Below are positions 21,063 to 43,465 of a stretch of DNA of 64,000 bases, piece after piece. Every line of letters begins with the position of its first letter. Position 1 is the stretch's first letter. The notes under the pieces were generated by a model. That model saw only the letters and a list, made by a program, of their open reading frames with translations. It made no database searches and was not told the DNA's origin. Source of the stretch: Alphaproteobacteria bacterium (lineage in GTDB: Bacteria; Pseudomonadota; Alphaproteobacteria; Rickettsiales; UBA998); the NCBI GenBank assembly GCA_004292675.1, contig RDXO01000020.1:7-64006 (forward strand). The letters run 5' to 3'. The translations under genes were made by a program, and so were the position numbers.

Positions 21063-21150
21063 ACTGTGAGATTTTTGCATAAGTCTCAATTCTCGTCATA
21101 CCAGCGATCATAGGTTATTTTGGATTCCTGCCTTACGCTAAGAATGACTA
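21063..21150. repeat. Composite repeat: left copy of the direct repeat GAGATTTTTGCATAAGTCTC-AATT(C/T)TCGTCATAC plus a reverse-oriented family A unit
   Basis: 21068..21101 matches 22528..22561 with a few mismatches or an indel. 21090..21150 is the reverse complement of GTCATTCTTAGCGTAAGGCAGGAATCC..ATGATCGCTGGTATGACGAG. Confidence 0.75.
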
Positions 21151-21837: not shown

Positions 21838-21843
21838 ACAACG

Positions 21844-22443: not shown

Positions 22444-22470
22444 AGGAAACTAGGTATGCCTTATTTATAC

Positions 22471-22490
22471 TATCTATCTATCTATCTATC
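22471..22490. repeat. Tetranucleotide tandem repeat (TATC)5
   Basis: TATCTATCTATCTATCTATC lies about 30 nt upstream of the longest start of minus-strand ORF 21844..22443. Confidence 0.9.
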
Positions 22491-22527
22491 TTGTCAATGA
22501 TAAAAATATGACAATTATGTTACAGTG

Positions 22528-22595
22528 GAGATTTTTGCATAAGTCTCGAATTTCGTCATACTTGGCGTAAGGCGGGTATCCATAAACTACTATTA
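22528..22595. repeat. Composite repeat: right copy of the GAGATTTTTGCATAAGTCTC direct repeat plus a family A unit
   Basis: CATACTTGGCGTAAGGCGGGTATCCATAAACTACTATT recurs in inverted orientation at about 24495..24533. Confidence 0.75.
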
Positions 22596-22745
22596 TCACG
22601 TACTGTATCTTTTTGGCATGTTTTTAAGCTAAATCACTAGAATAACTAAGAGAAAAATCTATATTTTATTGACTTTATGTCCTCATTATTTATACGGTCA
22701 TTATGTTGTACTGTGCATCATGATCATATATTTTTCTCACTCTTT

Positions 22746-24440
22746 ATGAATTCTATCAAACTATCTTTGCTTGCTGCATTCTTATTTCTAAGTGTCGTTG
22801 GTGCAGCCTCTGCTAGTGCCATAGATAGTTCTGCGATCCCTAATCCTGCCGATATAGGACGCATTAAACCTGAAGAAAAAATGCTACGCTCGCGCCCTAA
22901 GGCACAAGCACGCGCTAAAGAAGCGGGCGGGCTTCCATCAGTACAAGCCCCTGAAGGTGCAGAGCATATTCGCTTTATCTTAAAAGACATCCATATTACA
23001 GGAACAACCATCTTCTCGCAAAAAGAATTAGAGCCCTTATTTGCTGATTATCGTACTACAGAAATATCCCTAAAAACTGCCTATGATATTGCCCATAAAA
23101 TAACCAAGCACTATCAAAATGCCGGTTATTTTTTATCAGTTGCCTATCTCCCTGATCAAGAAATTAGTGATGGTACGATAAAAATGCAGGTGGTTGAGGG
23201 GTATATTGCCGATGTTCATATGCCTAAATCCTTAGCGTCGTACAGTCTTATCAGCTCCTATGTGCATAATATTACACAACAACGTCCCTTACGCGCTAAA
23301 ACATTAGAAAGCCTTTTATTGCTTATCAATGATTTGCCGGGATTATCAGCGAAGGGTACGCTTTCTGAACTGAACGATGCACATGATGGCGGGGTAGAAC
23401 TTACCATCGAAACATCCGAAGAGCAGGGAACTGGACTTGTGAGTTTTGATAATTATTCTTCTCGTTTTTTGGGACCACATCAAGGTACGCTTTCTTATAC
23501 GGATAGCTTCATACCTTTTCACCAAACCAACATTTCGGGATTAATGAGTGCGCCAACGGATAAGTTAAAGTTTTTCTCGCTTGGTCATAATATTGCTATC
23601 ACACCTGATATAACCTTTGAATTTGCAGGAAATCATACGCAAGCAGCTCCGGGATTTACGCTTAAACCTTTTGAAATTGACAGTACGGCAAACTTCTTAA
23701 GTGGATCGTTTCGTTATCAATTTCTTCGTCAACGGGAACAAAATTTAGCATTACGTGTCAACCTAGATATGAGGAATACGACGACGGAATCGCTCAATAC
23801 GGAAATCGCCCAAGATCATATACGTGCCTTACGCCTTGCGGCAGAATATGACATGATCGATCATTGGGATGGATACACCATAATCAATGCTCAATTTTCT
23901 CAAGGTATTGGCGGGCTAGGATCAACGCCTGAAGGTGATACCAAATTATCGCGCCAGCAGGCATCTCCTGATTTTAGCAAAATTGAATTATCCGTCACAC
24001 GAATACAAGCCTTGAGTGATCAATGGTCATTTATCATCAGTGCCGCCTCACAAATAGCATCCGATCCGCTTTATTCTGCAGAAGAATTCGGATATGGCGG
24101 TCAAGGCTTTGGTCGTGCTTTTGATGCATCAGAAATTATTGGTGATAGTGGCGTATTAGGATCGTTAGAGCTTCGCTATAGCGAGTGGAAAGAGCCTAAG
24201 CCCGTTGGATTTGAGCCTTATGTATTTTATGATATGGGGCGCATTTGGAATAAGGATAGTGGGCAACCCGCCCGCGAATCAGGTTCTTCTATAGGCTTTG
24301 GTGTGCGTGCTACCACTGAATTCAACATGAGTGGCAATTTAGGGATAGCTTTTCCCGTGAATAGGGATGTTGTCACTCCTATTTATGGTGATAAAAATAA
24401 CCATCCACGTCTATTATTGGAAATCACGCATAGTTTCTAG
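22746..24440 (+). CDS. Two-partner-secretion outer-membrane transporter (TpsB; ShlB/FhaC/HecB family)
   Basis: Signal peptide MNSIKLSLLAAFLFLSVVGAASASA, a POTRA-type block (IRFILKDIHITGTTIFSQKELEPLF...YQNAGYFLSVAYLPDQEISDGTIKMQVVEGYI) and a beta-barrel ending in an aromatic residue (...EITHSF). The start is set at the internal Met; the ORF track starts at 22677. Confidence 0.85.
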   Translation: MNSIKLSLLAAFLFLSVVGAASASAIDSSAIPNPADIGRIKPEEKMLRSRPKAQARAKEAGGLPSVQAPEGAEHIRFILKDIHITGTTIFSQKELEPLFADYRTTEISLKTAYDIAHKITKHYQNAGYFLSVAYLPDQEISDGTIKMQVVEGYIADVHMPKSLASYSLISSYVHNITQQRPLRAKTLESLLLLINDLPGLSAKGTLSELNDAHDGGVELTIETSEEQGTGLVSFDNYSSRFLGPHQGTLSYTDSFIPFHQTNISGLMSAPTDKLKFFSLGHNIAITPDITFEFAGNHTQAAPGFTLKPFEIDSTANFLSGSFRYQFLRQREQNLALRVNLDMRNTTTESLNTEIAQDHIRALRLAAEYDMIDHWDGYTIINAQFSQGIGGLGSTPEGDTKLSRQQASPDFSKIELSVTRIQALSDQWSFIISAASQIASDPLYSAEEFGYGGQGFGRAFDASEIIGDSGVLGSLELRYSEWKEPKPVGFEPYVFYDMGRIWNKDSGQPARESGSSIGFGVRATTEFNMSGNLGIAFPVNRDVVTPIYGDKNNHPRLLLEITHSF

Positions 24441-24456
24441 GAGACTAATGTTATTA

Positions 24457-24533
24457 AATTTCGTCACTCCTGCGTAGGCAGGAGTCCAGTAACAATAGTC
24501 GTTTATGGATACCCGCCTTACGCCAAGTATGAA
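24457..24533. repeat. Family A intergenic repeat, two units, inverted relative to 22553..22595
   Basis: TTCGTCACTCCTGCGTAGGCAGGAGTCCAGTAACAATAGTCGTTTATGGATACCCGCCTTACGCCAAGTATG. Confidence 0.75.
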
Positions 24534-24623
24534 AAAAATCTAGCGTTATACGGAGGTTTATCTATAGTCGTTTGAAATATAGTGCTTTTACCATTATATG
24601 ATAAAAAATAATGATTACCATAA

Positions 24624-25415: not shown

Positions 25416-25856
25416 ATGTTTACAGGTATAATCATGGTTATGAGTGAGTCTGCTTTTCTTATCGATATTTTTTTTGAGCATATTGCCCGAGCAAGCATTG
25501 TACCGTTTGTCTCAAGTGTGACCTTAGAAGCCATGTATTTATTTGGTGGATATGCCTTGCTAAAACCAATTTTTGCAGGGATAGCAGGTATGATCTGTGG
25601 TTGTTTAACATCATGGTGTTTTGGTTGTGGTTTGCGTCGATTATATTATCGTTGGAAATCCATAGATGATGCTCTATTTTTGAAGCTGAACGGTGCGATG
25701 CATCATTATGGGTGGGTGGCAGCGATTTTATTTCCTTTGCCCTTAGCGACGCTTATTATCGTTGTGTTGGGCTTTTTTCAGGTCTCCTTGGTGCGTGTGG
25801 GAATAATGGTACTTTTTGGGGCTATCATCTCCATGAAAACATTTTTTCTTGCATGA
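25416..25856 (+). CDS. Small inner-membrane protein (YqaA/DedA-like?)
   Basis: 146 aa with four hydrophobic segments. The family assignment is tentative. Confidence 0.4.
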   Translation: MFTGIIMVMSESAFLIDIFFEHIARASIVPFVSSVTLEAMYLFGGYALLKPIFAGIAGMICGCLTSWCFGCGLRRLYYRWKSIDDALFLKLNGAMHHYGWVAAILFPLPLATLIIVVLGFFQVSLVRVGIMVLFGAIISMKTFFLA

Positions 25857-25859
25857 ATG

Positions 25860-26260
25860 ATAAAATAAACGCTTTCTTATAGATTTCATGCGATAGTTAT
25901 ACACAGAAATTTTCTTCCTTCTAAATATAATATATATAAATTTAAAGTAGAAGTAGTTGTTAGTTGTGCCTGTGTTTTATGGGGATAAGTGGTTATCCTG
26001 TGCTTATGCTGAATGTTATGCACAGCAAAAAACATGCTAAGCAACCTAAATGCTTCATTTTTTCTTGATGGTTGTGGATAAGCCAAAATTTACTATCTAC
26101 ATGGCTCAAGATCGTGCATAAACTGTGGATGCGCTGTGGATGTCTGTGGATAAGTCGTGCCTTTTTTTCTATCCACAATGTTATAACGGTTTTTTCCCAT
26201 AGCTTATCCACAGCATGATGCATAAAAAACTTCTTGTTGTTCGTGGCATTAAGGTGTAGG
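25860..26260. other. Candidate chromosomal origin of replication (oriC)
   Basis: An AT-rich tract (CTAAATATAATATATATAAATTTAAAG, 25921..25947) is followed by a cluster of DnaA boxes. There is no credible CDS in this gap. Gene orientation and G/C composition change around it. Confidence 0.65.
26073..26212. promoter_or_regulatory. Cluster of six DnaA boxes (three perfect TTATCCACA/TGTGGATAA)
   Basis: TGTGGATAA 26073..26081; TGTGGATGC 26124..26132; TGTGGATGT 26135..26143; TGTGGATAA 26145..26153; CTATCCACA 26169..26177; TTATCCACA 26204..26212. Confidence 0.8.
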
Positions 26261-26270
26261 ACTATGTCCT

Positions 26271-27386
26271 ATGATTGCCTATATTTTCAAACGACTCATC
26301 CTTATTATTCCAACACTTTTGGGTGTCATGGTGTTGAATTTTGTCATCACGCAAGCTGCACCCGGAGGGCCTGTGGATCGGATGATTTATCAGTTGACCG
26401 TGCAGGATGGCGGTTCTGCAACATCCAATTTCACGGGCAGTGGGCAAGGCGATGCAGGTTCATCGAAAGGGGGTATGATTCCCTTGGTGCAGTCTTATGA
26501 GGGGAAAACGCGCTCATCGCGTGGCTTAGACCCTGAAATGATTGCACAAATTGAAAAAATGTATGGTTTTGATAAACCTCCCTTAGAGCGTTTTATGCAT
26601 ATGATGCAGGGTTATATGCGCGCAGATTTTGGTGAGAGTTTTTTCCGAGATGCACGGGTGATGGATATTATCATTGAGAAATTGCCTGTTTCCATTTCAT
26701 TGGGCTTATGGACGACTCTTCTTACCTATCTTTGCTGTATTCCGCTTGGCATTAAGAAGGCGGTGCGCGATGGCTCACCTTTTGATATTGCAACCAGTTG
26801 GGCGATTCTGATAGGTTATTCCATACCGAGCTTTTTGTTTGCCATTGTCTTATTGATTGTGTTTGCGGGTGGTGAATATGTTCAATGGTTTCCGTTGCAA
26901 GGCATAAGCTCCGATTTACCAGAGGGGACATCCTTGTGGATACGCATCAAGGATTATATGTGGCATATGACCTTGCCTATTGTGGCGATGATGATTGGTT
27001 CGTTTGCGAGTCTCTCGATGCTAACTAAAAATTCCTTTCTTGATGAAATTGGCAAGCATTATGTCATGACGGCGCGTGCGAAGGGCTTACGGGAACGTCA
27101 TGTGTTGATGCGCCATGTTTTTCGTAATGCCATGTTAATTGTAATTGCGGGCTTTCCTCAGGCTCTTATTAAGATATTATTTACCAGCTCCCTATTAATC
27201 GAAGTGATTTTTTCATTGGATGGGTTGGGATTATTAGGCTTTGAGGCGGTAGTGAATCGTGATTATCCTATTGTATTTGGTACGTTATTCATCTTTACGT
27301 TGCTTGGATTGGTGATGAATTTGATCGGGGATATTATTTATATGTTGGTTGATCCGCGTATTGATTTTGAGCGGAGGTCTGTATGA
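26271..27386 (+). CDS. yejB: Peptide/microcin-C-type ABC transporter permease YejB
   Basis: The Opp/Dpp-family BPD permease pattern has the characteristic long YejB insert. The N-terminus is MIAYIFKRLILIIPTLLGVMVLNF. Confidence 0.85.
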   Translation: MIAYIFKRLILIIPTLLGVMVLNFVITQAAPGGPVDRMIYQLTVQDGGSATSNFTGSGQGDAGSSKGGMIPLVQSYEGKTRSSRGLDPEMIAQIEKMYGFDKPPLERFMHMMQGYMRADFGESFFRDARVMDIIIEKLPVSISLGLWTTLLTYLCCIPLGIKKAVRDGSPFDIATSWAILIGYSIPSFLFAIVLLIVFAGGEYVQWFPLQGISSDLPEGTSLWIRIKDYMWHMTLPIVAMMIGSFASLSMLTKNSFLDEIGKHYVMTARAKGLRERHVLMRHVFRNAMLIVIAGFPQALIKILFTSSLLIEVIFSLDGLGLLGFEAVVNRDYPIVFGTLFIFTLLGLVMNLIGDIIYMLVDPRIDFERRSV

Positions 27387-28417
27387 AATTTTCTCCTATT
27401 ACAAAGCGTCGTTGGAAGAATTTTAAGTCTAATCGTCGTGGCTATGTGTCGCTATGGTTGATGGTAGTGGTGCTATGTGTTACGTTGCCAGCCGAGTTCA
27501 TTGCGAATGATCGCCCTGCGTTGATTTATTATAAAGAGGCATTCTATATGCCTATATTTCATTCCTATCCCGAAACGACTTTTGACGGTTATTTTGAAAC
27601 CGAAACAAGATATGCCGATCCGTTTATACGTCAACAAATAAACGCGCATGGATGGATGATTGAGCCAATTATCCCCTATTCTGCCCGTTCGATGGATTAT
27701 GAAGTACCTCGCGCTCCTTATCCGCCATCATCGCGTCATTGGTTTGGTGTGGATGATCAAGGGCGCGATGTGTTAGCTCGATTAATCTATGGGTGCCGTA
27801 TATCATTATTATTTGCTTTTATGCTCTCTATAGCAAGTTCCGTTATAGGGATTATTGTCGGAGCGATTCAGGGTTATTATGGTGGCATGATCGATTTGCT
27901 CTCGCAGCGTTTTGTTGAGATATGGTCGGGTTTGCCGATGCTGTATATGTTGATTATACTCACTACTCTAGTAGAACCGAATTTTTGGTGGTTACTATTG
28001 TTGTTGTTATTATTCTCATGGATGGAATTAGTGGGAGTTGTGAGGGCAGAATTTTTGAAAGTTCGTAATTATGATTATGTCCGTGCAGCGCGTGCGTTAG
28101 GGGTCGGTGAAATAACGATTATGTGGCGACATATCATGCCCAATGCGATGGTGGCGACGTTGACCTATATGCCGTTCATCGTTAATGGGGCGATGACTAC
28201 CCTCACCTCATTAGATTTTCTTGGTTTTGGTTTGCCTGTAGGTTCACCTTCTTTGGGGGATTTATTGTCGCAAGGTAAGAATAATCCTACGTCACCATGG
28301 CTTGGGCTGACTGCCTTTGCTACTCTTTCCTTATTGCTGACGATGATGATGTTCATTGGGGAAGCGTTGCGTGATGCATATAATCCACATAAGGTATTTC
28401 GTCATGACGTTGCTTGA
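27383..28417 (+). CDS. yejE: ABC transporter permease YejE
   Basis: N-terminal ...RRWKNFKSNRRGY... and an OppC-like permease core. It overlaps yejB by 4 nt. Confidence 0.85.
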   Translation: MKFSPITKRRWKNFKSNRRGYVSLWLMVVVLCVTLPAEFIANDRPALIYYKEAFYMPIFHSYPETTFDGYFETETRYADPFIRQQINAHGWMIEPIIPYSARSMDYEVPRAPYPPSSRHWFGVDDQGRDVLARLIYGCRISLLFAFMLSIASSVIGIIVGAIQGYYGGMIDLLSQRFVEIWSGLPMLYMLIILTTLVEPNFWWLLLLLLLFSWMELVGVVRAEFLKVRNYDYVRAARALGVGEITIMWRHIMPNAMVATLTYMPFIVNGAMTTLTSLDFLGFGLPVGSPSLGDLLSQGKNNPTSPWLGLTAFATLSLLLTMMMFIGEALRDAYNPHKVFRHDVA

Positions 28418-29984
28418 AGTAAAGAACCTTGCCATCCAGTTTTATGGATCGTCACAGCCAACCGTAGAACAGCTTTCATTTTCGGTACAAAAAGGCGAGA
28501 CATTAGCGATTGTTGGAGAGAGCGGATCGGGTAAATCCATCACGGCATTATCGATGATGCGGTTGAATCCTGCCACCCATATAGCCGATGGAACGATCCA
28601 TTTTGAAGGTAATGATATTACCAATGCCACACAGTTAGAGCTTTATGCCATGCGTGGCGGTGATGTCGGGATGATCTTTCAAGAACCGATGACGGCACTT
28701 AATCCGTTGCATACGATCACCAAACAGATTGCGGAAACGATAGCATTGCATCAACCGCAGATGCGCGTTGATGAAGTACGTGCGCGTGTGAGGGAATTAT
28801 TGCAAGAAGTTGGCTTAGATTATCTGAATCGAAGAAAAAAACCCTACCCTCATCAATTATCAGGGGGGGAGCGTCAACGTGTGATGATTGCTATGGCGAT
28901 TGCAAATCGTCCTAAATTGCTTATTGCCGATGAACCAACAACTGCATTGGATGTTACAACCCAAGCGCATATTATGGAATTGCTGAAAGAGTTGCAGCAA
29001 AAATATCAGATGGCATTGATTCTGATTACGCATGATTTGCATGTTGTGCGCAATATTGCGCATCGTGTGGTGGTCATGCGGCGTGGTCGTCTAGTAGAGA
29101 GCGCGCCAACACAGCAGCTTTATGAACACCCAAGCCATGATTATACGAAAGAACTCTTAGCATCCACTCATGCGCGTGCGCCCGATACGAAGCCTAATAG
29201 AGAACACATGCTTATTCAGGCGTATGATGTGAGTGTGTCCTATGCAGGCTCAGATCGTTGGACGTGGCGCAAAACTACCCGTCACGTGCTTGCGCCCTTA
29301 TCCTTGGAGGTGGCAGAATCTGAAACGCTTGGCATTCTTGGTGAGAGTGGTTCAGGAAAAACAACCTTGGGCTTAGCACTGGCGCGATTAGTATCTGCGC
29401 AAGGGCGTGTTGAGTTTATGGGGAAAAATCTCTATGATATGTCACGGCAGAGTTTGCGGGAAGTGCGTGCTTCGGTACAATTCGTATTTCAAGACCCCTA
29501 TTCTAGCTTGAATCCACGCATGACAATAGAACAAATTCTTACAGAAGGTTTGACTATTCATGCGCCGCATGTGTCTGATAAAGAACGTCATATGCGTGTA
29601 GTGGATATGATAGAGCAGGTTGGATTAGATCATAGTGCATTATCACGTTATCCGCATGAGTTTAGTGGAGGACAAAGGCAGCGTATTAATATCGCACGTG
29701 CTATGATTGTTCGTCCACGTTTTGTGATTTTCGATGAACCGACGTCAGCGTTAGATATTACCCTGCAAACGCATATTTTAGCCTTGTTAAAAGAATTACA
29801 ACAGCGTTTTGGTTTGGGATATGTTTTTATTAGCCATGATTTGCATGTGATTCGTAGTATTAGTCATCGTGTCATGGTGTTACAGCAAGGGAAAGTTGTC
29901 GAGTCGGGCGATGCTGATAAGGTGTTGATGCACCCTCAGCATCCTTACACCCAATCACTCGTTGAAGCGTCAGGTATGCTATGA
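28404..29984 (+). CDS. yejF: ABC transporter ATP-binding protein YejF (duplicated ATPase)
   Basis: Two Walker A motifs (GESGSGKS twice) and two LSGG(E/Q)RQR signatures. The start is set at [13 protein letters not shown] and overlaps the yejE stop. The ORF track starts at 28356. Confidence 0.9.
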
Positions 29985-31318
29985 TCCATGATACTATTAT
30001 TGCCCAAGCAACGCCTCAAGGTGTTTCTGGTGTTGCTGTGCTGCGTCTTTCTGGTAAAAACGCCTATCAATGTGCTTTGCTTTTTGTTGAACGTGAATAT
30101 CTAAAACCGCGATACGCTCATTATGTGACGTTGCGGCATCCTCATACAAAGGATGTTTTAGATTATGCCTTGATGCTTTATTTTCCAGCACCTCATAGCT
30201 TTACAGGTGAAGATGTTGTGGAGATTCATTGTCATGGTAGTCGAATGGTGATTCGTTCTATTATTGATGCAGCTCTCATCTGTGAGGGAGTGCGTTATGC
30301 GCAAGCGGGAGAGTTTACGCGCCGAGCATGTGAAAATGGAAAACTTGATTTATTGCAAGCAGAAGCACTTGCTGATTTGATAGCAGCAGATACGCCAAAA
30401 CAGCAAAAACTAGCGTGCCGTCATTTGAGTGGGGCTGCATCACAACATTATATAGAGTTGGAGCGAGCCATTATAGAAGCGCGGGCTTTTTGCGAAGTTT
30501 TTATTGATTTCCCAGATGATGATTTACCCGAAAATTTAGATGATCAAATAAATGAGAAAATAGATTCATGCATCACAATGATTCGTTCAATGTTGGATTG
30601 TGCGCGAGCAGGAAAGCATATACGTGATGGTGTTCGCGTTGCCATAATGGGTGTTCCGAATGCAGGAAAATCCACGCTCATTAATCGCATTGCGGGGCGA
30701 CATGTCGCTATTGCCTCACCTGTAGCCGGAACAACACGTGATGCAATAGAATGCTCCGTGGTGCTGAATGGTGTGGTGTTTCAATTTTTTGATACAGCAG
30801 GATTACGTAGTAGCACAGATGATATAGAAGTGCAAGGAATAAATATTGCGAAAAAACTCGCTTCTCAAGCGGATGTAGTGTTGATTATTTTGGATCAAAC
30901 GCAACCGCTAAAAGAACAAATGGATTCTTTGGATGAAATTGTTTCACGTGAAACAATTTGGGTGGTGAATAAAATAGACGCCTCTCCTCATTTAATGTGG
31001 GAAATGAACGAAAATGTTTCACGTGAAACAATTTTGATTTCATCACAGACGGGCGAAGGTGTAAATCACCTTGTCAATAGATTGATTGAATTCACTACAG
31101 AAGTTCCGATGGAAGATATTTATGTTACGCGCGATCGTCATATAGGGCATCTTAATGAGGCGTTGCAATCTCTTGTGGATGCACATGATGAGTTGCAATT
31201 AGTTCTTAAAGCAGAACATACACTTCATGCTTGCAATTATGTTGGTTTTATATTAGGAAGAATTGATATAGAGCGTGTTTTAGATGCCTTGTTTTCCAGT
31301 TTTTGCATTGGCAAATAA
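29981..31318 (+). CDS. mnmE: tRNA modification GTPase MnmE
   Basis: N-terminal [23 protein letters not shown]1 motif [10 protein letters not shown], and the C-terminal CIGK motif. Confidence 0.95.
30940..30955. promoter_or_regulatory. parS site 1 (TGTTTCACGTGAAACA)
   Basis: A perfect 16-bp palindrome matching the canonical ParB-binding consensus. It lies inside mnmE and is read as VSRET. Confidence 0.85.
31015..31030. promoter_or_regulatory. parS site 2 (TGTTTCACGTGAAACA)
   Basis: An identical 16-mer 75 bp from site 1, inside mnmE, again read as VSRET. Confidence 0.85.
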
Positions 31319-31327
31319 GTGTATCAG

Positions 31328-31343
31328 TGTTTCACGTGAAACA
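31328..31343. promoter_or_regulatory. parS site 3 (TGTTTCACGTGAAACA)
   Basis: An identical 16-mer in the short mnmE-mnmG gap. Confidence 0.85.
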
Positions 31344-31358
31344 ATCAAAGAGAGAGAA

Positions 31359-33212
31359 ATGGAAAAGAATTTTGATGTTATTGTTATTGGTGGCGGACAT
31401 GCTGGTATTGAAGCAGCAACAGCAGCAGCACGTATGGGTGCTAGCACGGCGCTTATAACCATGAAATATGACAACCTCGGGGTAATGTCATGTAATCCTG
31501 CTATTGGTGGAGTTGGAAAGGGTACTTTAGTGAGGGAGATAGATGCTTTAGATGGGGTAATGGCAAAGATTGCTGATAAATCTGGCATACATTTCAAGAT
31601 GTTGAACCGTAGTAAAGGGCCGGCAGTTTATGGTCCTCGCACTCAAGCAGATCGTGCTTTGTATCAACAGGCAACACAAGATATGCTGAGTGATTATGAA
31701 AATCTCACCATTATCATTGATACTGCAGAAGAATTATTGAGTGATAAGGATGGAATTAATGGTGTGCGAGGTCAATTAGGAATGTACTATACTCGATCGG
31801 TCGTGTTGACAACAGGAACTTTTTTGCGTGGGCTAATTCACATAGGAACAAAAACCACCCCCGCTGGTCGGGTGGGGGAGTCACGTGCAGAAGCTATGTC
31901 GTGGTCATTGTTAAAGCATGGATTGCAATTAGGGCGGCTCAAAACGGGTACGCCAGCTCGGTTAGACAAACATTCCATTGATTTTGAGCGTTGTGAAATT
32001 CAGCATTATGATGAATACCCCTCACCAATGTCGTATATGAATGATATTATTGATGTTCCTCAAGTGCCGTGCCATATTACGCGCACAACGGCAAAAACAT
32101 TAGAAGTAGTACGGGATAACATTAAGTCTTCTGCCGTATATTCGGGGCAGATTGAAGGTCGTGGACCACGCTATTGTCCATCCATAGAAGATAAAATTGT
32201 TCGTTTTGCAGATAAGTCATCACATCAAATTTTTCTTGAACCAGAAGGATTGACAAGTGATTTAATTTATCCAAACGGAATTTCGACATCGTTTCCAGAA
32301 GATATTCAAATCGAGTTAGTTCATTCAATAGCTGGCTTAGAAGAAGCGAAGATCATACAATATGCATACGCAATAGAATATGATTATGTTGATCCGCGAG
32401 AGCTAAAACATTCTTTAGAATGCAAAAAAATAGCAGGATTGTTCTTGGCAGGACAAATTAATGGGACAACAGGTTATGAAGAAGCGGCTGCTCAAGGTCT
32501 TGTTGCGGGGGTTAATGCAGCGTTAAAAGCACAAGAACGTCCTCAGTGGATGCTGTCACGCACAGATGCATTTATAGGGGTGATGATAGATGATTTGGTA
32601 ACACAGGGAGTGTCAGAACCGTACCGCATGTTTACATCACGATCGGAATATCGGCTTCTGCTGCGTCCTGATAATGCGCACCATAGACTAACTTCGTTAG
32701 GTGCTGAGGTTGGAGTTGTGGGACGCGAACGTTCATTGTTTCACGTGAAACACTATGAATTATATAATCGCACAAAAGAAAAATTAGAAACTAATTTTGT
32801 TACGCCTCATGAATTATTAGAACATGGCATTTCTATGAAGCTGGATGGACGAAAACGATCGTGGTATGAGCTGATGGGAATAGAACAAATATCTCATGAG
32901 GTGCTTTGTACTATTGCTCCTTTTGTCTTGGAGTTAAGTGACGACATGTGTGAGTTGTTAAGAATAGATAGTATGTACCAAAGTCATATTATACGACACC
33001 AATACGAAATTGAACGTATAAAGAGAGATGAAAGTTTGGTTATATCAGAGGATATTGATTATGGTTGCATGGCATCATTGTCAAACGAAATGAAAGAAAA
33101 ATTGATTCGTCACAGGCCGCAGACGATAGCAGAAGCGTCACGCATACCAGGGGTAACGCCTGCTGCATTAGTTGCGCTGTATGCGGAGGTGCGAAAACAT
33201 GAGTTCGCATAG
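31359..33212 (+). CDS. mnmG: tRNA uridine 5-carboxymethylaminomethyl modification enzyme MnmG (GidA)
   Basis: FAD-binding [16 protein letters not shown] plus conserved [11 protein letters not shown] and [16 protein letters not shown]. The start is set at MEKNFDV, preceded by GAGAGAGA. The ORF track starts at 31284. Confidence 0.95.
32737..32752. promoter_or_regulatory. parS site 4 (TGTTTCACGTGAAACA)
   Basis: An identical 16-mer inside mnmG, read as FHVKH in that frame. Confidence 0.85.
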
Positions 33213-33807
33213 TCAAGAATTAATATTATCATATGTTTCACGTGAAACATATGATAAATTGCAGAAATATGTAGAAGAGTTGCTTCTCTGGAATCAGTCT
33301 CTTAATTTAATTTCTTCGGCAACAGTCAACGAAGTGTGGAGTCGTCATATATTAGATTCCGTTCAAATTATCCCATTTCTTGATAAGGCAGAGGTAATTG
33401 TAGATTTTGGAAGTGGTGGTGGACTCCCAGCTATTCCAGTTGCATTAGAGAAAGAATGTACGGTTATTATGATTGAGTCTGATAGGAAAAAATATGAATT
33501 TTTAGCGCACTGCAAAAGGATGCTTCCTTTGCAAAACACAGAAGTCATATGTAAAAGAATTGATGAAATACAGCACCTTAGTGCTGATTTTGCTATTTCG
33601 CGCGCTTGCTCGTCGTTGGATAAATTATGTGGGTTTATGCATAGGCATGTTAGGTCAGAGGGAAAAGGTTTTTTCCTCAAAGGAAAAACAATTTATGATG
33701 AAATAATGGTTGCATCTTCCTACAGGTATGACTATACTCTGCACCGAAGCATCACCGATGAGAGTGGTGTGATTTTAGAAATACAACATTTAAGGAAATC
33801 AACATGA
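33199..33807 (+). CDS. rsmG: 16S rRNA (guanine527-N7)-methyltransferase RsmG (GidB)
   Basis: SAM-binding [12 protein letters not shown], with an N-terminus containing VSRET. The start is set at MSSHSQE and overlaps the end of mnmG. Confidence 0.9.
33234..33249. promoter_or_regulatory. parS site 5 (TGTTTCACGTGAAACA)
   Basis: An identical 16-mer near the 5' end of rsmG, read as VSRET. Confidence 0.85.
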
Positions 33808-34598
33808 CGCGAATTATTGCTGTAGTGAATCAAAAAGGTGGCGTTGGAAAGACAACCACAACAGTTAATTTGGCTACTGCTCTTGCGGCCATCGGAAAAA
33901 AAACACTTGTCATAGACCTTGATCCTCAGGGGAATGCTAGCACAGGGTTGGGTGTGGAGCATCGTGATCGGGTTGTTTCATCATATCATATTCTAATTGG
34001 TAGCGTGACTTTGGCGCAGGCATCGGTTGTTACCTCAATCCCTAACCTGCATGTTGTGCCATCGAATATAGATTTATCTGCTGCTGAGATTGAACTTGTT
34101 CAAGAAATGGCTCGTGAAGGTCGTTTGAAAGCTGCGTTAGAGTCTGGTGCGGATGGTTATGATTATATTCTCATTGACTGCCCACCGTCATTAGGTTTGA
34201 TTACGATGAATGCGCTTGTTGCGGCGCAATCGGTTTTTATCCCTCTTCAGTGTGAATTTTATGCTTTAGAAGGATTGAGTCATTTATTAAAGACTATACA
34301 ATTAATTCAGCGTAGGTTAAATCCAGAATTGGATATATGCGGTGTTGTGCTAACAATGTATGATAAACGCAATAAATTGACGGAGCATATTGAATCTGAC
34401 GTGAGAGGTTTTCTGAAGGAAACTGTTTTTTCAACGGTTGTGCCAAGAAATGTACGTTTGTCGGAAGCCCCTTCTCACGGCAAGCCCGCTATTGTGTATG
34501 ATATGAACTGCTCTGGATCACGTGCATACATAATGATGGCCAAGGAATTATTGCAACGTGAAAAAACTAGAATTTCCTCATCGGCAAAGGTGGCGTGA
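33804..34598 (+). CDS. parA: Chromosome partitioning ATPase ParA
   Basis: Deviant Walker A NQKGGVGKTTT, and DCPPSLG. Confidence 0.95.
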   Translation: MTRIIAVVNQKGGVGKTTTTVNLATALAAIGKKTLVIDLDPQGNASTGLGVEHRDRVVSSYHILIGSVTLAQASVVTSIPNLHVVPSNIDLSAAEIELVQEMAREGRLKAALESGADGYDYILIDCPPSLGLITMNALVAAQSVFIPLQCEFYALEGLSHLLKTIQLIQRRLNPELDICGVVLTMYDKRNKLTEHIESDVRGFLKETVFSTVVPRNVRLSEAPSHGKPAIVYDMNCSGSRAYIMMAKELLQREKTRISSSAKVA

Positions 34599-34599
34599 T

Positions 34600-35604
34600 A
34601 TGATAGCAGCACCAACGAAAGGTTTAGGTAAGGGGCTTTCTGCATTGATGGCTGAAGAATACGGTCAAGAAACGGGAGTTGTTGCGGATCGCTTGGGTGC
34701 TTTGCCGATAGATCAGATTACCTCTGGGGCATATCAGCCTCGTACTTATTTTGATCAAGAGGCATTGAAAGAGTTAGCTGATTCTATTCGTAGCAATGGC
34801 GTGATGCAACCTATTTTGGTGCGGCAACTTCCTGAAGCGCGCAATGGTGCATTATATGAAATTGTTGCGGGTGAGCGAAGATGGCGCGCCTCAAAAATTG
34901 CAGGTTTAACGGAAGTGCCTGTGATCATCAAGGAAATAGATGATCAAAAAGCACTAGAAATGGCGTTGATAGAGAACATACAACGCCAAGACCTTAACGC
35001 CATTGAAGAAGCTGATGGGTATCAGCAACTAATGGATGGCTTTGGTTATACGCAAGAAGAGCTATCCGTTGTTGTTGGTAAGAGTCGCAGTTATATTGCT
35101 AATATGTTGCGTCTTCTTGCTTTGCCGGTGCTTGTCAAAGATATGTTAAAATCTGGCGAGATTACCGCAGGTCATGCTCGTGCATTGTTAAAAGCCTCTG
35201 ATCCTGAGAAATTAGTTCAAGAGATTGTCCGTCGAGGATTAAATGTTCGTCAAACAGAGAATATTGTAAAGGCTGGTGGGTTGCCTTCAAAAGACAGCGA
35301 AGAGTGGGATGGGCTATCTTCTGGTGAAACTATCGTTGTACATCAATCGGACACCGCTTCCTCAAAGCATAGTAAACATAATGATGTGCCTGCCTCGTCT
35401 GTTAAAACTAAATCTCAGCACGCAACGGTTGCTCACCAAGCACCAAAAGATCCCGATATTGTAGCTTTGGAAGAAGCTCTTACTGAGCATTTAGGGATGC
35501 GCGTTGTTATTGATGATCAGGGGGAATGTGGTAGCGTAACCTTGCATTATCGATCTTTAACGCAACTTGATGATATTTTACGCCAGTTTGGAGGGTCGCT
35601 TTAG
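34600..35604 (+). CDS. parB: Chromosome partitioning protein ParB
   Basis: GLGKGLSAL, the arginine-patch box GERRWRA, and an HTH region. The start is set at MIAAPTKGLG; the ORF track starts at 34558. Confidence 0.95.
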   Translation: MIAAPTKGLGKGLSALMAEEYGQETGVVADRLGALPIDQITSGAYQPRTYFDQEALKELADSIRSNGVMQPILVRQLPEARNGALYEIVAGERRWRASKIAGLTEVPVIIKEIDDQKALEMALIENIQRQDLNAIEEADGYQQLMDGFGYTQEELSVVVGKSRSYIANMLRLLALPVLVKDMLKSGEITAGHARALLKASDPEKLVQEIVRRGLNVRQTENIVKAGGLPSKDSEEWDGLSSGETIVVHQSDTASSKHSKHNDVPASSVKTKSQHATVAHQAPKDPDIVALEEALTEHLGMRVVIDDQGECGSVTLHYRSLTQLDDILRQFGGSL

Positions 35605-36440
35605 TGTCCTCGCCACGGATGTCTACACCAATATATCTTCTTTCTGACTCAACGGGCGAAACAGTGAGTGCGGTTGCTCGTGCTGCATTGGCGCAATTTG
35701 CTTCAGTCGATGTTGCTGAGCATCATCATACCCTTATACGTTCTGTTTCACAATTAGAGCGAATTTTGCAAACGATAAAAGCACACCCGGGGCCTGTGAT
35801 GTTCACGTTGGTGAAAAGAGAAATGCGTGATGCTGTGCGCGTCTTTTGTGAGCAGGAGCAGTTGCCCTGTATCTCAATTTTGGGTGGTGTCATTACCCAA
35901 TTAAGTGCGTATTTTGGTGTAGCAACCGCAGCATTGCCAGGGCGACAACATGAGTTGAATGATAATTATTTTCACCGTGTTGAAGCAATTAATTTTGCTT
36001 TAGCGCATGATGATGGGCAGAATAGTTGGAATCTTAACGCGGCAGATGTGATTCTGGTAGGTCCGTCGCGTACCTCGAAGTCCCCTACATGCGTGTATCT
36101 GGCAAATAAAGGCTTAAAAGCCGCCAATGTTCCTTTTGTTCATCAATGTGCATTGCCCGACGCGCTCTTTCAGGCATCGCACCCGTTTATTGTGGGCTTG
36201 TTGATTGATGCGGAGCGATTGGGACAAATACGGCAAACGCGCCTTGAAACATTAGGTGAGAGAAGCGTGCAAGGTTATGCTGATTTTGATCAGATTGAAG
36301 CGGAATTATTTGCAGCACGGCGTTTGTTTGTGAAACAACGTTGGCCTGTGATTGATGTGAGTTTGCGATCAGTTGAAGAAACGACGGCACATATTTTGCA
36401 ACTCTATCGAAAATTTAGGCAGGTGCATCGTGTCAGCTAA
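35604..36440 (+). CDS. Pyruvate, phosphate dikinase / PEP synthase regulatory protein (DUF299 bifunctional kinase-pyrophosphorylase)
   Basis: LLSDSTGET at the N-terminus and the P-loop GPSRTSKSPT. Its start overlaps the parB stop. Confidence 0.9.
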   Translation: MSSPRMSTPIYLLSDSTGETVSAVARAALAQFASVDVAEHHHTLIRSVSQLERILQTIKAHPGPVMFTLVKREMRDAVRVFCEQEQLPCISILGGVITQLSAYFGVATAALPGRQHELNDNYFHRVEAINFALAHDDGQNSWNLNAADVILVGPSRTSKSPTCVYLANKGLKAANVPFVHQCALPDALFQASHPFIVGLLIDAERLGQIRQTRLETLGERSVQGYADFDQIEAELFAARRLFVKQRWPVIDVSLRSVEETTAHILQLYRKFRQVHRVS

Positions 36441-37284
36441 AAATGGAAAAGCACGTGTTGCGTGTGTGATAGGCGACCCCATTGCTCATAGTTTATCCCC
36501 CTATATTCACGAATATTGGTTGCAAAAATATGATATTAATGGTGCATATGTGCCTTTTCGCGTTACCGCCGATGCTTTTTCATCGACATTAGATAGCCTT
36601 TTTTCTTGTGGCTGCGTTGGTATGAACATCACCCTGCCCCATAAACAACAGGCTTATGCCTATGCCGATCATGTGGATGAAACTGCAATCCGTTTAGGCG
36701 CGGTGAATACATTAGTGTTGCGTGATGGTGCTGTGCATGGCTTCAACAGTGATGCGTTGGGCTTTGCGCGATTATGGCAAGAATCATTCGCACAGTCTCG
36801 CGCAACTAATCCTCAGCGTGTTGTTCTGTTGGGTGCGGGTGGTGCTGCCCCTGCGATCATCGCTGCGCTGTATGATAATGGTTGCCGTGAGGTGATTATT
36901 GCAAACCGCACCTTGGAGCGAGCGCATAATGTGGTAGCATTGATGCAAACATCATGCCCTGAGTGCCATTTTTCTGTATGCCACCTTGATGATGTGGTGG
37001 GCATTATCCCTTCTGTGGATGCATTGGTAAATTCGATTGCGATTGGGATGTTGGATGAACATTATTTTGTGCCATGGTTTGATAATGCGCCTATTCATAT
37101 GTGTGTTGTTGATGTTTCCTATAGTGCTTTAGGGACTCCTCTAACTCGTTTCGCTATCGAACGTGGTTTTAATGCCTATGATGGATTGCCGATGTTGGTA
37201 TGGCAGGCAACAGTAGGATTTGAGTTGTGGTTTGGTGTACAGCCAGAAATTGACACTGCCCTCTATGGATATTTGCGAACATAG
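36430..37284 (+). CDS. aroE: Shikimate dehydrogenase
   Basis: GDPIAHSLSPYIHE, NITLPHK, and the NADP-binding motif LLGAGGAAPA. A GTG start at 36430 is proposed to avoid a 68-nt overlap; the ORF track starts at 36373. Confidence 0.85.
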   Translation: MSAKNGKARVACVIGDPIAHSLSPYIHEYWLQKYDINGAYVPFRVTADAFSSTLDSLFSCGCVGMNITLPHKQQAYAYADHVDETAIRLGAVNTLVLRDGAVHGFNSDALGFARLWQESFAQSRATNPQRVVLLGAGGAAPAIIAALYDNGCREVIIANRTLERAHNVVALMQTSCPECHFSVCHLDDVVGIIPSVDALVNSIAIGMLDEHYFVPWFDNAPIHMCVVDVSYSALGTPLTRFAIERGFNAYDGLPMLVWQATVGFELWFGVQPEIDTALYGYLRT

Positions 37285-37296
37285 ATAAGGGGTTGT

Positions 37297-37872
37297 GTGA
37301 TGCGCTGCATTGGGATTACGGGAGGCATAGCAAGCGGAAAATCCTCCGTTGCGAAATTGTTTCGGTATCGAAATATTCCCGTGTTTGATGCAGATATTGT
37401 TGCCCGTCACGGCTATGATGATGTTGATTGGACGTTCTTATATCATTTCGATAGCGAAATTAATTGTGAACAAGGCGTGGATCGAGCGGTATTGCGTGCC
37501 TTGATTGCGCGTTATCCCGTCATTCTGGATATGCTAGCCGAGCAACTTCACCCTTATGTATGGCAAAAGTGGCATGATTTTAAGCGCGAGCATCAACGGC
37601 GCGGAACGGGCGTGATTGCAGCGGAAGTCCCCTTATTGCTTGAATGCGGATGGCAAAATGCCTATGATGCCGTATGGGTAACTCATGCCCCGCAATGGTT
37701 GCGCATTCAGCGCGTTTTTAAGCGACATACGATGAATGAAGCCACGTTGCGTGCGATTTTGGAGCGTCAATATCGTGACCATGAGCGTTGCTCGTTGGCG
37801 GATGTGATTATACCTACTGCACATGGGAAAGCAGATATGGCGTTGCATGTGTGGCGTTATTTAGATAAATAA
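37297..37872 (+). CDS. coaE: Dephospho-CoA kinase
   Basis: P-loop IGITGGIASGKSSV and a length of about 190 aa. Confidence 0.9.
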   Translation: MMRCIGITGGIASGKSSVAKLFRYRNIPVFDADIVARHGYDDVDWTFLYHFDSEINCEQGVDRAVLRALIARYPVILDMLAEQLHPYVWQKWHDFKREHQRRGTGVIAAEVPLLLECGWQNAYDAVWVTHAPQWLRIQRVFKRHTMNEATLRAILERQYRDHERCSLADVIIPTAHGKADMALHVWRYLDK

Positions 37873-37874
37873 GG

Positions 37875-38591
37875 ATGGTTTTTATGACACATAGGCAAAT
37901 ATGTTTTGATACCGAAACGACAGGTTTTGAACCGAGTGCAGGGCATCGTATTGTAGAAATTGGTTGCGTGGAGATGATAGGCTATGTGCGCACAGGCGCG
38001 GTGTATCATGCTTATGTGAATCCACAGCGTTCTATGCCCCCTGAGGCGCAAAAAGTTCACGGCTTAAGCGAGGCATTCCTTAAGGATAAGCCGCTTTTTA
38101 GCCATGTTGCGGATGCGTTTCTTGAATTTATTGGCGATGCTGCTTTGGTGGCGCATAATGCCCGCTTTGATATGAAATTTATCAATCATGAATTACAGGC
38201 GATTGGTAAAAAACCCATAGCGGCCAATCGTGCGATTGACACGTTGGAACTTGCAAAACGTGCCTATCCGGGGCAGCCATCAAGCCTTGATGCCTTGTGC
38301 CGTCGTTTTGGGATTGATTTAAGTGCGCGTACCCATCACGGCGCATTGCTCGATGCTGAATTGCTTGCAGATGTCTATCTGGAATTGATGGGCGGACGAC
38401 AAGTGAGTTTTGGATTGCAGGCATCGGATAATGCAACGACCCGTAGTCAGGAAGATACGGCAAGGGATGGTGCTTCTCATGCCCCCTTCCCTCGTCGAAT
38501 TGCTGTGGTGCGTGACGAAGAACGCACAGCGCATCGGGCATTTATCCAAGCCAAAATAAAAAACGCGTTGTGGGATAGTGAAGCATCATGA
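37875..38591 (+). CDS. dnaQ: DNA polymerase III subunit epsilon (proofreading 3'-5' exonuclease)
   Basis: Exo I FDTETTG, Exo II HNARFDMKF, Exo III HGALLDAELLADVY. Confidence 0.95.
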   Translation: MVFMTHRQICFDTETTGFEPSAGHRIVEIGCVEMIGYVRTGAVYHAYVNPQRSMPPEAQKVHGLSEAFLKDKPLFSHVADAFLEFIGDAALVAHNARFDMKFINHELQAIGKKPIAANRAIDTLELAKRAYPGQPSSLDALCRRFGIDLSARTHHGALLDAELLADVYLELMGGRQVSFGLQASDNATTRSQEDTARDGASHAPFPRRIAVVRDEERTAHRAFIQAKIKNALWDSEAS

Positions 38592-43461: not shown

Positions 43462-43465
43462 AACT

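What the first reader, a model, noticed from the sequence alone, without database searches (positions are those of the whole stretch)
25860..26260. Candidate oriC: six DnaA boxes plus an AT-rich tract, in a non-canonical gene context
- **DnaA boxes:** a ~400-bp gap with no credible CDS holds six boxes within 140 bp. Three are perfect TTATCCACA/TGTGGATAA and three differ at one or two positions, and both orientations occur.
- **AT-rich tract:** a nearly pure A/T tract (25921..25947) lies upstream and could serve as the unwinding element.
- **Gene orientation:** 14 consecutive genes to the right (yejB through the ABC ATPase at 39.7 kb) are co-directional, with tiny or overlapping gaps.
- **Strand composition:** spot counts of G versus C on the + strand give C>G left of the gap (priA, recJ and the kinase gene, even where genes are on the + strand) and G>C to the right. 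This is the polarity expected at an origin.
- **parS:** five parS sites lie 4.7-7 kb to the right.
- **Context:** the flanking genes (a YqaA-like gene and yejB) are not the hemE-type neighbours commonly described for alphaproteobacterial origins, and dnaA is not in the window.
Basis: partly seen in the sequence, partly recalled or inferred. Interest (0 to 1): 0.7.

Follow-up and report, generated by a model that had tools for sequence, protein, structure and literature searches.

The report
Chromosomal replication origin, rearranged neighbourhood
The 414-bp gap upstream of yejB is very probably the chromosome's replication origin (oriC) in an uncultured alphaproteobacterium; it is an ordinary DnaA-type origin, and only its reshuffled gene neighbourhood is unusual.

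Summary
The 414-bp non-coding gap 25857-26270 holds 11 DnaA-box-like 9-mers, three of them perfect TTATCCACA. Its cluster score is 24; the next best 400-bp stretch in the window scores 8, and 300 simulated 64-kb sequences never exceeded 10. The AT tract at 25919-25961 is the least stable duplex stretch of all 64 kb.

Strand skew at third-codon and four-fold sites flips from C-rich to G-rich here, whatever the gene orientation. Five perfect parS sites lie 4.7-7.0 kb to the right.

A sister MAG (about 91% DNA identity) keeps every box and the AT tract. A distant relative has the same type of element at its own skew switch.

The context is a rearranged canonical one. The two gene arms that normally diverge from alphaproteobacterial origins (mnmE-mnmG-rsmG-parA-parB and DUF299-aroE-coaE-dnaQ) lie here in tandem to the right, and hemE is absent. 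No CtrA, IHF-consensus or GANTC sites occur.

Verdict: a DnaA-dependent oriC (confidence about 0.85), a new member of a known kind, of modest interest. Whether it is the only such cluster in the genome, and whether it actually fires, could not be tested.

The parts
25857..26270 (.). Candidate oriC: non-coding gap between a 146-aa membrane ORF and yejB.
   Evidence: 65% AT against 55% for the window. No family-matched ORF, Rfam hit, terminator-like site or +-strand promoter-like site. 95.4% identical in sister MAG L003, against about 91% overall.
25919..25961 (.). AT-rich tract, the proposed DNA unwinding element.
   Evidence: Least stable 30-, 40- and 60-bp duplex stretch of the whole 64-kb window by nearest-neighbour free energy. 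100% conserved in L003.
25945..25956 (+). AAG TAG AAG TAG, a run resembling DnaA-trios between the AT tract and the first box.
   Evidence: Read directly from the sequence. It lies 23 bp from box 25980, beyond the 0-16 bp rule for the basal unwinding system (PMC8287927), so this is only suggestive.
25897..25905 (+). DnaA box TTATACACA (1 mismatch), left of the AT tract.
25980..25988 (-). DnaA box TTATCCCCA (1 mismatch), the box nearest the AT tract.
   Evidence: The same TGGGGATAA box sits at the matching place in L116 and occurs in the box cluster of SAR116 locus L014.
26016..26024 (+). DnaA box TTATGCACA (1 mismatch).
26073..26081 (-). Perfect DnaA box TTATCCACA.
26093..26101 (+). Weak DnaA box CTATCTACA (2 mismatches).
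   Evidence: In L003 it reads TTATCTACA (1 mismatch).
26113..26153 (-). Head-to-tail array of four boxes at 26113, 26124, 26135 and 26145. The last three are spaced 11 and 10 bp apart and end in a perfect box.
   Evidence: The helical phasing is read from the coordinates. The region is 100% conserved in L003.
26169..26177 (+). DnaA box CTATCCACA (1 mismatch), in the opposite orientation to the array.
26204..26212 (+). Perfect DnaA box TTATCCACA, 58 bp upstream of the yejB start.
30940..33249 (.). Five perfect parS sites (30940, 31015, 31328, 32737, 33234) in the mnmE 3' end, the mnmE/mnmG spacer, mnmG and the rsmG 5' end.
   Evidence: expected 0.25. The coding-embedded sites encode VSRET or FHVKH. 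Equivalent clusters occur in L003, L004, L112 and L116.
26271..29984 (+). yejB-yejE-yejF ABC importer operon, the first genes on the right replichore.
   Evidence: NCBIfam matches: YejB 497 bits, YejE-type permease 454 bits, YejF 636 bits.
29981..35604 (+). mnmE-mnmG-rsmG-parA-parB, the classic origin-proximal arm.
35604..38591 (+). DUF299 (COG1806/RP001 homologue)-aroE-coaE-dnaQ. In Caulobacter and Rickettsia this arm starts at the origin; here it is fused to the parB stop codon.
   Evidence: Literature: PMC1914354 and PMC6393856.

Best explanation
This is the DnaA-dependent chromosomal replication origin (oriC) of an uncultured alphaproteobacterium.

**Inferred mechanism**
- DnaA sits on the three consensus boxes (26073, 26145, 26204).
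- It then spreads cooperatively over the weaker boxes. These include the helically phased head-to-tail array 26124/26135/26145 and the oppositely oriented boxes 26169/26204, giving two opposed arrays as in E. coli oriC.
- The DnaA oligomer extends leftward through boxes 26016 and 25980 and opens the AT-rich tract 25919-25961.
- The helicase loads there and forks leave in both directions.
- ParB bound to the five parS sites 4.7-7 kb to the right then segregates the duplicated origin region.

**What is shown and what is inferred**
- Shown here: the sequence anatomy, the statistics, the skew switch and the conservation.
- Inferred: DnaA binding, unwinding at the AT tract, and firing.

**Context (inferred from gene order)**
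In canonical alphaproteobacteria the origin lies between hemE and DUF299. The DUF299-maf-aroE-coaE-dnaQ arm leaves on one side and the hemE-hemJ-rho-mnmE-mnmG-rsmG-parA-parB arm leaves on the other. Here a single inversion that carried the origin together with the mnmE-parB arm would give the observed order: oriC | yejBEF-mnmE...parB-DUF299...dnaQ. hemE, rho and maf are lost from the block and yejBEF now lies next to the origin.
For: - **Box cluster.** Score 24, against a runner-up of 8 and a simulated maximum of 10. There are 3 perfect boxes in 140 bp, and 4 in the whole window against 0.83 expected.
- **AT tract.** It is the least stable stretch of the 64 kb and lies directly beside the boxes.
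- **Skew.**
  - Third-codon skew is negative for left-flank genes on both strands.
  - It is positive for all right-flank genes, including the four on the minus strand. Mann-Whitney p = 2e-6 for plus-strand genes and 0.03 for minus-strand genes.
  - Four-fold-site skew shows the same switch between ShlB (22.7-24.4 kb) and yejE.
  - The cumulative G-C minimum is at 24076 and the best change point at 25270.
- **Gene direction.** 30 of the 33 ORFs of 80 aa or more to the right of the gap are co-directional with a rightward fork.
- **Origin markers.** parS x5 plus parAB, mnmE/mnmG/rsmG and DUF299-aroE-coaE-dnaQ all lie within 12 kb.
- **Conservation.** In L003 the gap is 95.4% identical. Only 1 of 19 substitutions falls in the 99 bp covered by boxes (binomial p = 0.04), and that one improves the box.
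- **Positive control.** In SAR116 loci L008, L014 and L015 the same score finds the cluster exactly at the canonical DUF299 | hemE gap.
- **Independent relative.** L116 (YejB 68% identical) has the same gene array. It carries a TTATCCCCA-TTATCCACA cluster beside its least stable 40-mer, at its own skew flip, 7.5 kb upstream of yejB. In reverse orientation its order mirrors the window's: AT tract, then short repeats, then TGGGGATAA.
- **Canonical site unavailable.** The parB stop overlaps the DUF299 start by 1 nt.
Against: - Only 64 kb is visible, so a second cluster elsewhere (for example near dnaA) cannot be excluded.
- Left-flank skew is weaker than right-flank skew.
- 13 of the 20 left-flank ORFs of 80 aa or more are on the + strand, head-on to a leftward fork.
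- Seven more distant loci share the gene array (L004, L112, L114, L115, L117, L118, L119) but have no consensus-box cluster within 10 kb of yejB. The adjacency to yejB is therefore lineage-specific.
- In L112, yejB and yejE sit on the C-rich side of the skew switch.
- No CtrA, IHF-consensus or GANTC sites are present. That departs from the best-studied alphaproteobacterial origin, though it is not evidence against an origin as such.
- There is no functional data.
Confidence: 0.85

Rival explanations
1. An auxiliary DnaA-binding locus rather than the origin. It could be a DnaA-titrating or DnaA-recharging site (like datA or DARS), or a DnaA-controlled promoter region for yejBEF, that happens to lie in the origin-proximal region. 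The true origin would then use weak boxes nearby or lie elsewhere.
For: - The boxes lie directly upstream of yejB, the last one 58 bp from its start.
- Relatives with the same array lack the cluster, yet still show a skew change in this block. Origins in this clade may therefore be poor in consensus boxes, as Caulobacter Cori is (PMC4468827).
Against: - The cluster is paired with the least stable DNA of the window.
- It sits within about 1-2 kb of the skew switch.
- There is no +-strand promoter-like site and no IHF consensus, which datA and DARS2 depend on (my recollection, not tested here).
- No other gap near the switch carries any boxes.
- L116 shows the same pairing of boxes and AT tract at its own skew switch.
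Confidence: 0.07
2. A relic or secondary origin. The sequence was once an origin, or is a duplicate, and the active origin is elsewhere on the replicon, for example beside dnaA.
For: - dnaA is not in the window.
- The rest of the genome is unseen.
Against: - A long-dead origin would not coincide with the present skew switch at neutral four-fold sites.
- It would also not keep all 11 boxes intact across about 9% overall divergence.
Confidence: 0.05
3. A chance accumulation of TTATCCACA-like words in an AT-rich promoter gap.
For: Single 1-mismatch boxes are common: 32 in the window against 18 expected.
Against: - The cluster score is three times the runner-up and more than twice the maximum of 300 simulations.
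- None of 100 shuffles reached 4 perfect boxes.
Confidence: 0.01

Closest known systems
E. coli-type oriC (high-affinity R boxes anchoring oppositely oriented arrays of weaker boxes beside an AT-rich unwinding element)
   Same: - Three consensus TTATCCACA boxes.
- Weaker boxes in a phased 10-11 bp head-to-tail array that ends in a perfect box.
- Opposed box orientations.
- An AT-rich tract at one edge.
- A size of about 320-400 bp.
   Different: - There is one GATC in the gap, so no sign of Dam/SeqA-type control.
- No IHF consensus.
- No 13-mer repeats were recognised.
- The neighbours are yejB and a small membrane ORF, not gidA/mioC. mnmG (gidA) is 5 kb away.
Caulobacter crescentus Cori and Rickettsia-type alphaproteobacterial origins (between hemE and DUF299/COG1806)
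   Same: - The same phylogenetic class.
- The same set of neighbourhood genes within 12 kb (DUF299-aroE-coaE-dnaQ and mnmE-mnmG-rsmG-parA-parB).
- parS a few kb away.
- An AT-rich region plus DnaA boxes in a gap of about 400 bp.
   Different: - hemE is absent, and DUF299 is 9.3 kb away, fused to parB.
- There are no CtrA sites (TTAA-N7-TTAA), no GANTC sites and no IHF consensus.
- There are three full-consensus boxes, whereas Cori has only two moderate G-boxes plus very weak W-boxes (PMC4468827).
Wolbachia, Ehrlichia and Anaplasma origins (hemE | COG1253), where a rearrangement split the hemE-COG1806 pair
   Same: They are a precedent for rearrangement changing the boundary genes of alphaproteobacterial origins while the origin stays with one arm (PMC1914354).
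   Different: There the origin stayed next to hemE. Here neither hemE nor DUF299 flanks it, and the two arms have become tandem.
Basal unwinding system (DnaA box + DnaA-trios + AT-rich DNA; B. subtilis, H. pylori and others)
   Same: The order and orientation fit my recollection of the layout: AT tract, then AAG TAG AAG TAG (four 3'-GA[T/A]-5' trios), then a box in TGTGGATAA orientation.
   Different: The spacer is 23 bp. The published search rule allows 0-16 bp, most commonly 13 bp.

Membership tests
Bacterial DnaA-dependent chromosomal origin (oriC) | A cluster of DnaA boxes in a non-coding region, above chance. | tested here: met
   11 boxes with 2 mismatches or fewer, 3 of them perfect. 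Score 24, against a runner-up of 8 and a simulated maximum of 10. No family-matched ORF or Rfam hit.
Bacterial DnaA-dependent chromosomal origin (oriC) | An AT-rich, easily melted element next to the boxes. | tested here: met
   25919-25961 is the least stable 30-, 40- and 60-mer of the 64 kb. Actual unwinding was not tested.
Bacterial DnaA-dependent chromosomal origin (oriC) | It lies at the strand-skew sign change with origin polarity (C-rich to G-rich on the + strand). | tested here: met
   Met within the window: third-codon and four-fold-site skews flip between 22.7 and 27.4 kb regardless of gene strand, and the change point is at 25270. The replicon-wide minimum could not be tested.
Bacterial DnaA-dependent chromosomal origin (oriC) | Origin-marker genes and parS nearby. 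| tested here: met
   Five parS sites at 4.7-7.0 kb. mnmE-mnmG-rsmG-parA-parB and DUF299-aroE-coaE-dnaQ within 12 kb.
Bacterial DnaA-dependent chromosomal origin (oriC) | Boxes conserved in relatives. | tested here: met
   L003 keeps all boxes and the AT tract; only 1 of 19 substitutions falls in a box. L116 has an analogous element. Seven more distant loci have no cluster within 10 kb of yejB.
Bacterial DnaA-dependent chromosomal origin (oriC) | It is the only such locus in the replicon. | not testable with these tools
   Only 64 kb is available. The source genome is not in the searchable genome set: the best MnmE hit is 91% identical.
Bacterial DnaA-dependent chromosomal origin (oriC) | DnaA binding, unwinding and autonomous replication. 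| not testable with these tools
   Needs experiments.
Caulobacter/Rickettsia-type alphaproteobacterial origin | Located between hemE and the DUF299/COG1806 gene. | tested here: not met
   The flanks are a 146-aa ORF and yejB. DUF299 is at 35604-36440, fused to parB. No hemE in the window. The SAR116 control loci do meet this feature.
Caulobacter/Rickettsia-type alphaproteobacterial origin | CtrA sites (TTAA-N7-TTAA), an IHF site and GANTC methylation sites in the origin. | tested here: not met
   None of the three occurs in 25857-26270; the one GANTC in the 25800-26330 scan lies inside yejB. IHF consensus scans are insensitive.
Caulobacter/Rickettsia-type alphaproteobacterial origin | Only moderate or weak DnaA boxes (G and W boxes). 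| tested here: not met
   Three full-consensus boxes. One TTATCCCCA box sits near the AT tract; from memory it resembles a W box, which was not checked.
Basal unwinding system | A DnaA box (2 mismatches or fewer) within 0-16 bp of three or more DnaA-trios. | tested here: not met
   Four trios at 25945-25956 are 23 bp from box 25980. On the other side, four NTN triplets at 26230-26241 are 17 bp from box 26204. Both are read from the sequence; the rule comes. Both are near misses, so the working resemblance stays open.
datA/DARS-like auxiliary DnaA site | A box cluster with an IHF site, away from the unwinding element and the skew switch. | tested here: not met
   No IHF consensus. The cluster adjoins the least stable DNA and the skew switch.

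The most novel reading that the evidence does not exclude
Within a clade of uncultured alphaproteobacteria, the two canonical origin arms have been fused into one tandem array (yejBEF-mnmE...parB-DUF299...dnaQ), and the origin element itself is not fixed in position.

- It abuts yejB here and in L003.
- It sits 7.5 kb further upstream, in the opposite orientation, in L116.
- It is unrecognisable within 10 kb of yejB in seven other lineages, although at least three of them still change skew sign inside the array.

This would mean repeated relocation or remodelling of oriC. In this lineage it would also mean a switch from the weak-box, CtrA-gated type to a strong-box, CtrA-free, E. coli-like type.
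Probability: 0.25. Interest if true: 0.5.

Novelty: new member of a known kind. Interest (0 to 1): 0.3.

Why it matters
- It fixes the replication start point, and therefore the replichore layout, for a poorly known lineage recovered from microbial-mat and freshwater metagenomes.
- It gives a clean example of an alphaproteobacterial origin detached from both hemE and DUF299. Rules that look for hemE or COG1806 next to the origin would miss it; a box-plus-skew method finds it.
- The apparent lack of CtrA and CcrM sites, together with three consensus boxes, suggests replication control unlike the Caulobacter model. That could be tested once a complete genome or a culture exists.
- It does not reveal a new kind of element.

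Tried and rejected
- **Known RNA, promoter or terminator.** No Rfam family in the gap at E up to 1, no terminator-like site and no +-strand promoter-like site.
- **Coding potential.** The two minus-strand ORFs in the gap (66 and 76 aa) match no Pfam family.
- **CtrA, IHF and GANTC scans.** All empty in the gap.
- **Finding the source genome.** Exact-protein look-ups returned only short Logan and JGI contigs, so whole-replicon skew and box scans were impossible.
- **Metagenome scan with YejB.** It gave no further close relatives.
- **Read depth.** Only assembler contigs are held for the runs that contain this organism. The expected gradient over 20 kb is also far below noise, so marker-frequency analysis was not possible.
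- **Origins of the relatives.**
  - I looked for consensus-box clusters and AT-rich minima in L004, L112, L114, L115, L117, L118 and L119 and found none.
  - The TTATCC hits inside yejF appear to be codons of the ABC signature motif (LSGGQ), not DnaA boxes; this is my reading of the hits.
  - I first thought the negative third-codon skew of yejB and yejE in relatives was an amino-acid artefact. It persists at four-fold sites in L112, so it stays unexplained.

Full report
**1. The observation**

The gap 25857-26270 (414 bp) lies between a 146-aa membrane ORF (25416-25856, +) and yejB (26271-27386, +).

- **Boxes.** Five more boxes with 2 mismatches or fewer lie at 25897(+), 25980(-), 26016(+), 26093(+) and 26113(-).
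- **Statistics.** I scored boxes as perfect = 4, one mismatch = 2, two mismatches = 1, summed over 400 bp. This stretch scores 24. The next best place in the window scores 8, and 300 first-order Markov simulations of 64 kb never exceeded 10. Only one other perfect box exists in the window (5039, inside an RTX-type gene).
- **AT tract.** By nearest-neighbour free energy, 25919-25961 is the least stable 30-, 40- and 60-bp stretch of the entire window.
- **Other readings excluded.** No Rfam family, terminator-like site or +-strand promoter-like site is found, and the small ORFs in the gap match no Pfam family.

**2. Strand composition**

- All-site GC skew is near zero or negative from 1 to 24 kb and +0.09 to +0.20 from 25 to 64 kb.
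- Third-codon skew depends on position, not on gene strand.
  - Left of about 21 kb it is negative for 10 of the 11 plus-strand genes and for all four minus-strand genes.
  - Right of 25.4 kb it is positive for all genes, including the four on the minus strand.
  - Mann-Whitney p = 2e-6 for plus-strand genes and 0.03 for minus-strand genes.
- Four-fold degenerate sites, which remove amino-acid effects, show the same switch: priA -0.28, ppk -0.40, ShlB -0.12, then yejE +0.28, yejF +0.26, mnmG +0.43.
- The cumulative G-C minimum is at 24076 on a flat floor between 21 and 25.4 kb. The best single change point is at 25270.
- The polarity (C-rich on the left, G-rich on the right) is that of an origin, not a terminus.

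**3. Neighbourhood**

- **To the right, all on the + strand with overlapping or tiny gaps:** yejB-yejE-yejF, mnmE, mnmG, rsmG, parA, parB, a DUF299 (Kinase-PPPase, COG1806) gene, aroE, coaE, dnaQ and an ABC ATPase. hemJ follows on the minus strand.
- **parS.** Five perfect sites lie at 30940-33249. Two are inside mnmE, one is in the mnmE/mnmG spacer, one is inside mnmG and one is in the rsmG 5' end.
- **To the left:** cysC, tRNA-Met, a ShlB/FhaC-type transporter, a partner-switching module, ppk, trpS, recJ and priA.
- **Absent:** dnaA and hemE are not in the window.

**4. How this compares with the canonical context**

The Caulobacter and Rickettsia origins lie between hemE and the DUF299/COG1806 gene (PMC1914354; PMC6393856).

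Three SAR116 loci fetched with the same MnmE query serve as a positive control. They read dnaQ<-coaE<-maf<-DUF299<- | gap | hemE->hemJ->rho->mnmE->...parB. My score places their best box cluster (15-17) exactly in that gap.

In the window both arms are present but in tandem. The parB stop codon overlaps the DUF299 start by 1 nt, so the canonical site has no room for an origin.

One inversion that carried the origin with the mnmE-parB arm would give this order. That is an inference from gene order only. So the context is a rearranged canonical one rather than a foreign one.

**5. Relatives**

The organism is an uncultured alphaproteobacterium found in microbial-mat and freshwater metagenomes.

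| Locus | Relation to the window | Box cluster | Skew |
|---|---|---|---|
| L003 (RDZH01000012) | sister MAG, about 91% DNA identity | all boxes and the AT tract kept | not examined |
| L116 | YejB 68% identical | score 18, 7.5 kb upstream of yejB | flips at the cluster |
| L004, L112, L114, L115, L117, L118, L119 | YejB 66-73% identical | none (best scores 4-8) | varies; see below |

- **L003.** The gap is 95.4% identical, as conserved as the flanking genes. Only 1 of 19 substitutions falls in the 99 bp covered by boxes (p = 0.04), and it improves that box.
- **The fused array is a clade trait.** Eight further loci (the last two rows of the table) carry it.
- **L116.** Its gap contains tandem TTATCCCCA-TTATCCACA plus CTATCCACT repeats, directly beside the least stable 40-mer of that locus, where four-fold skew flips (obg -0.59, then positive). 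Read in reverse it mirrors the window: AT tract, short repeats, then TGGGGATAA.
- **The other seven.** They have no consensus-box cluster within 10 kb of yejB. Their origins may use weak boxes, as Caulobacter does (PMC4468827), or may lie further away.
- **Unexplained.** L112, L114 and L004 still change skew sign inside the array, and in L112 yejB and yejE are on the C-rich side.

**6. Features of the Caulobacter model that are absent**

- There are no TTAA-N7-TTAA (CtrA) sites, no IHF consensus and no GANTC in the gap, and only one GATC.
- Three full-consensus boxes contrast with Cori's two moderate and five very weak boxes.
- Anatomically the element is closer to the E. coli type:
  - strong anchor boxes;
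  - a 10-11-bp phased head-to-tail array (26124, 26135, 26145);
  - an opposed pair (26169, 26204);
  - an AT-rich edge.
- A run resembling DnaA-trios (AAG TAG AAG TAG, 25945-25956) lies between the AT tract and box 25980, in what I recall as the right orientation. It is 23 bp away, beyond the 0-16 bp rule of the basal unwinding system, so I treat it as a near miss.

**7. Verdict**

Chance is excluded. The two serious rivals are disfavoured but not excluded, because only 64 kb of the replicon is visible:

- an auxiliary DnaA site or DnaA-regulated yejBEF promoter;
- a relic origin.

Against them stand the pairing with the window's least stable DNA, the coincidence with a skew switch at neutral sites, and the conservation of every box.

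This is a new member of a known kind. Its only unusual aspects are the fused-arm neighbourhood, which is shared by a clade of MAGs, and the E. coli-like, CtrA-free anatomy.

Noticed in passing
window 21148-22604: Two hypothetical minus-strand ORFs (229 and 199 aa, no family match) are absent from sister MAG L003. Their skew is opposite to that of their surroundings (four-fold skew +0.14 and +0.54). This looks like a recent 1.46-kb insertion about 4 kb from the origin, and a copy of the small palindromic repeat lies at its right edge.
   Followed up: partly
window 24460-24530, 22556-22594, 18662-18693: A small dispersed palindromic (REP- or MITE-like) element, core CTCCTGCGTAGGCAGGAG, occurs in intergenic gaps. 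Assembler depth in the source run jumps to about 110 against about 20 for the flanks, and contigs break there. The gap holding it (24441-24623) is only 49% identical to L003.
   Followed up: partly
window 25931-26184: A 254-nt contig from a freshwater metatranscriptome (run X8) matches the core of the origin gap exactly. In the surrounding 20 kb the only other exact contigs are two 151-nt pieces in ORF 21148-21837. This is a weak hint of transcription across the origin (Caulobacter has an origin-encoded small RNA), or it may be DNA carry-over.
   Followed up: partly
window 30940-33249; L004, L112, L116: The parS sites are embedded in coding sequence and three times encode the peptide VSRET (twice in mnmE, once in the rsmG N-terminus). 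Matching parS clusters are kept in relatives as distant as 54% MnmE identity.
   Followed up: partly
window 30000-34000; L004 9.7-15 kb; L112 13.7-18.4 kb: GC content dips across mnmE-mnmG-rsmG(-parA): about 40% here, and 35-45% against 50-60% flanks in relatives. The dip coincides with the parS zone. The cause is unknown.
   Followed up: no
L112 10001-13720; L114; L004: In relatives with the same gene array but no DnaA-box cluster, the skew sign change falls inside the array (near the yejF 3' end and mnmE 5' end), where there is no intergenic space. L112 yejB and yejE are significantly C-rich at four-fold sites. Where these genomes start replication is unexplained.
   Followed up: partly
L115 (whole 21-kb locus): All genes, including mnmE-parA, have negative four-fold skew. 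In this genome the whole array seems to lie on the other side of the origin. The locus is about 21 kb from the end of a 1.37-Mb contig.
   Followed up: no
window 42544-55739: A Pel exopolysaccharide operon. PelF and PelG are matched directly; the GH114 hydrolase, TPR proteins and GAF protein are consistent with PelA, PelB/PelE and PelD.
   Followed up: no
window 1082-5817 and 22677-24440: Two proteins with a flagellin N-terminal domain (one with RTX repeats), a 620-aa RTX-repeat protein with a glycoside-hydrolase-like N-terminus, and a ShlB/FhaC-type two-partner secretion transporter.
   Followed up: no
window 13078-14124: A small RelA/SpoT-like synthetase homologue (YjbM-like) has positive skew (+0.26 third-codon, +0.17 four-fold) among C-rich neighbours. 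It may be a recent acquisition or inversion.
   Followed up: no
L004 4946-4985 and 6064-6103: A near-identical AT-rich repeat (AAAAACACTATAAA.TATA.GGTTATAGTCATTTTATC) occurs in two neighbouring intergenic gaps, one of them just upstream of yejB. Its function is unknown.
   Followed up: no
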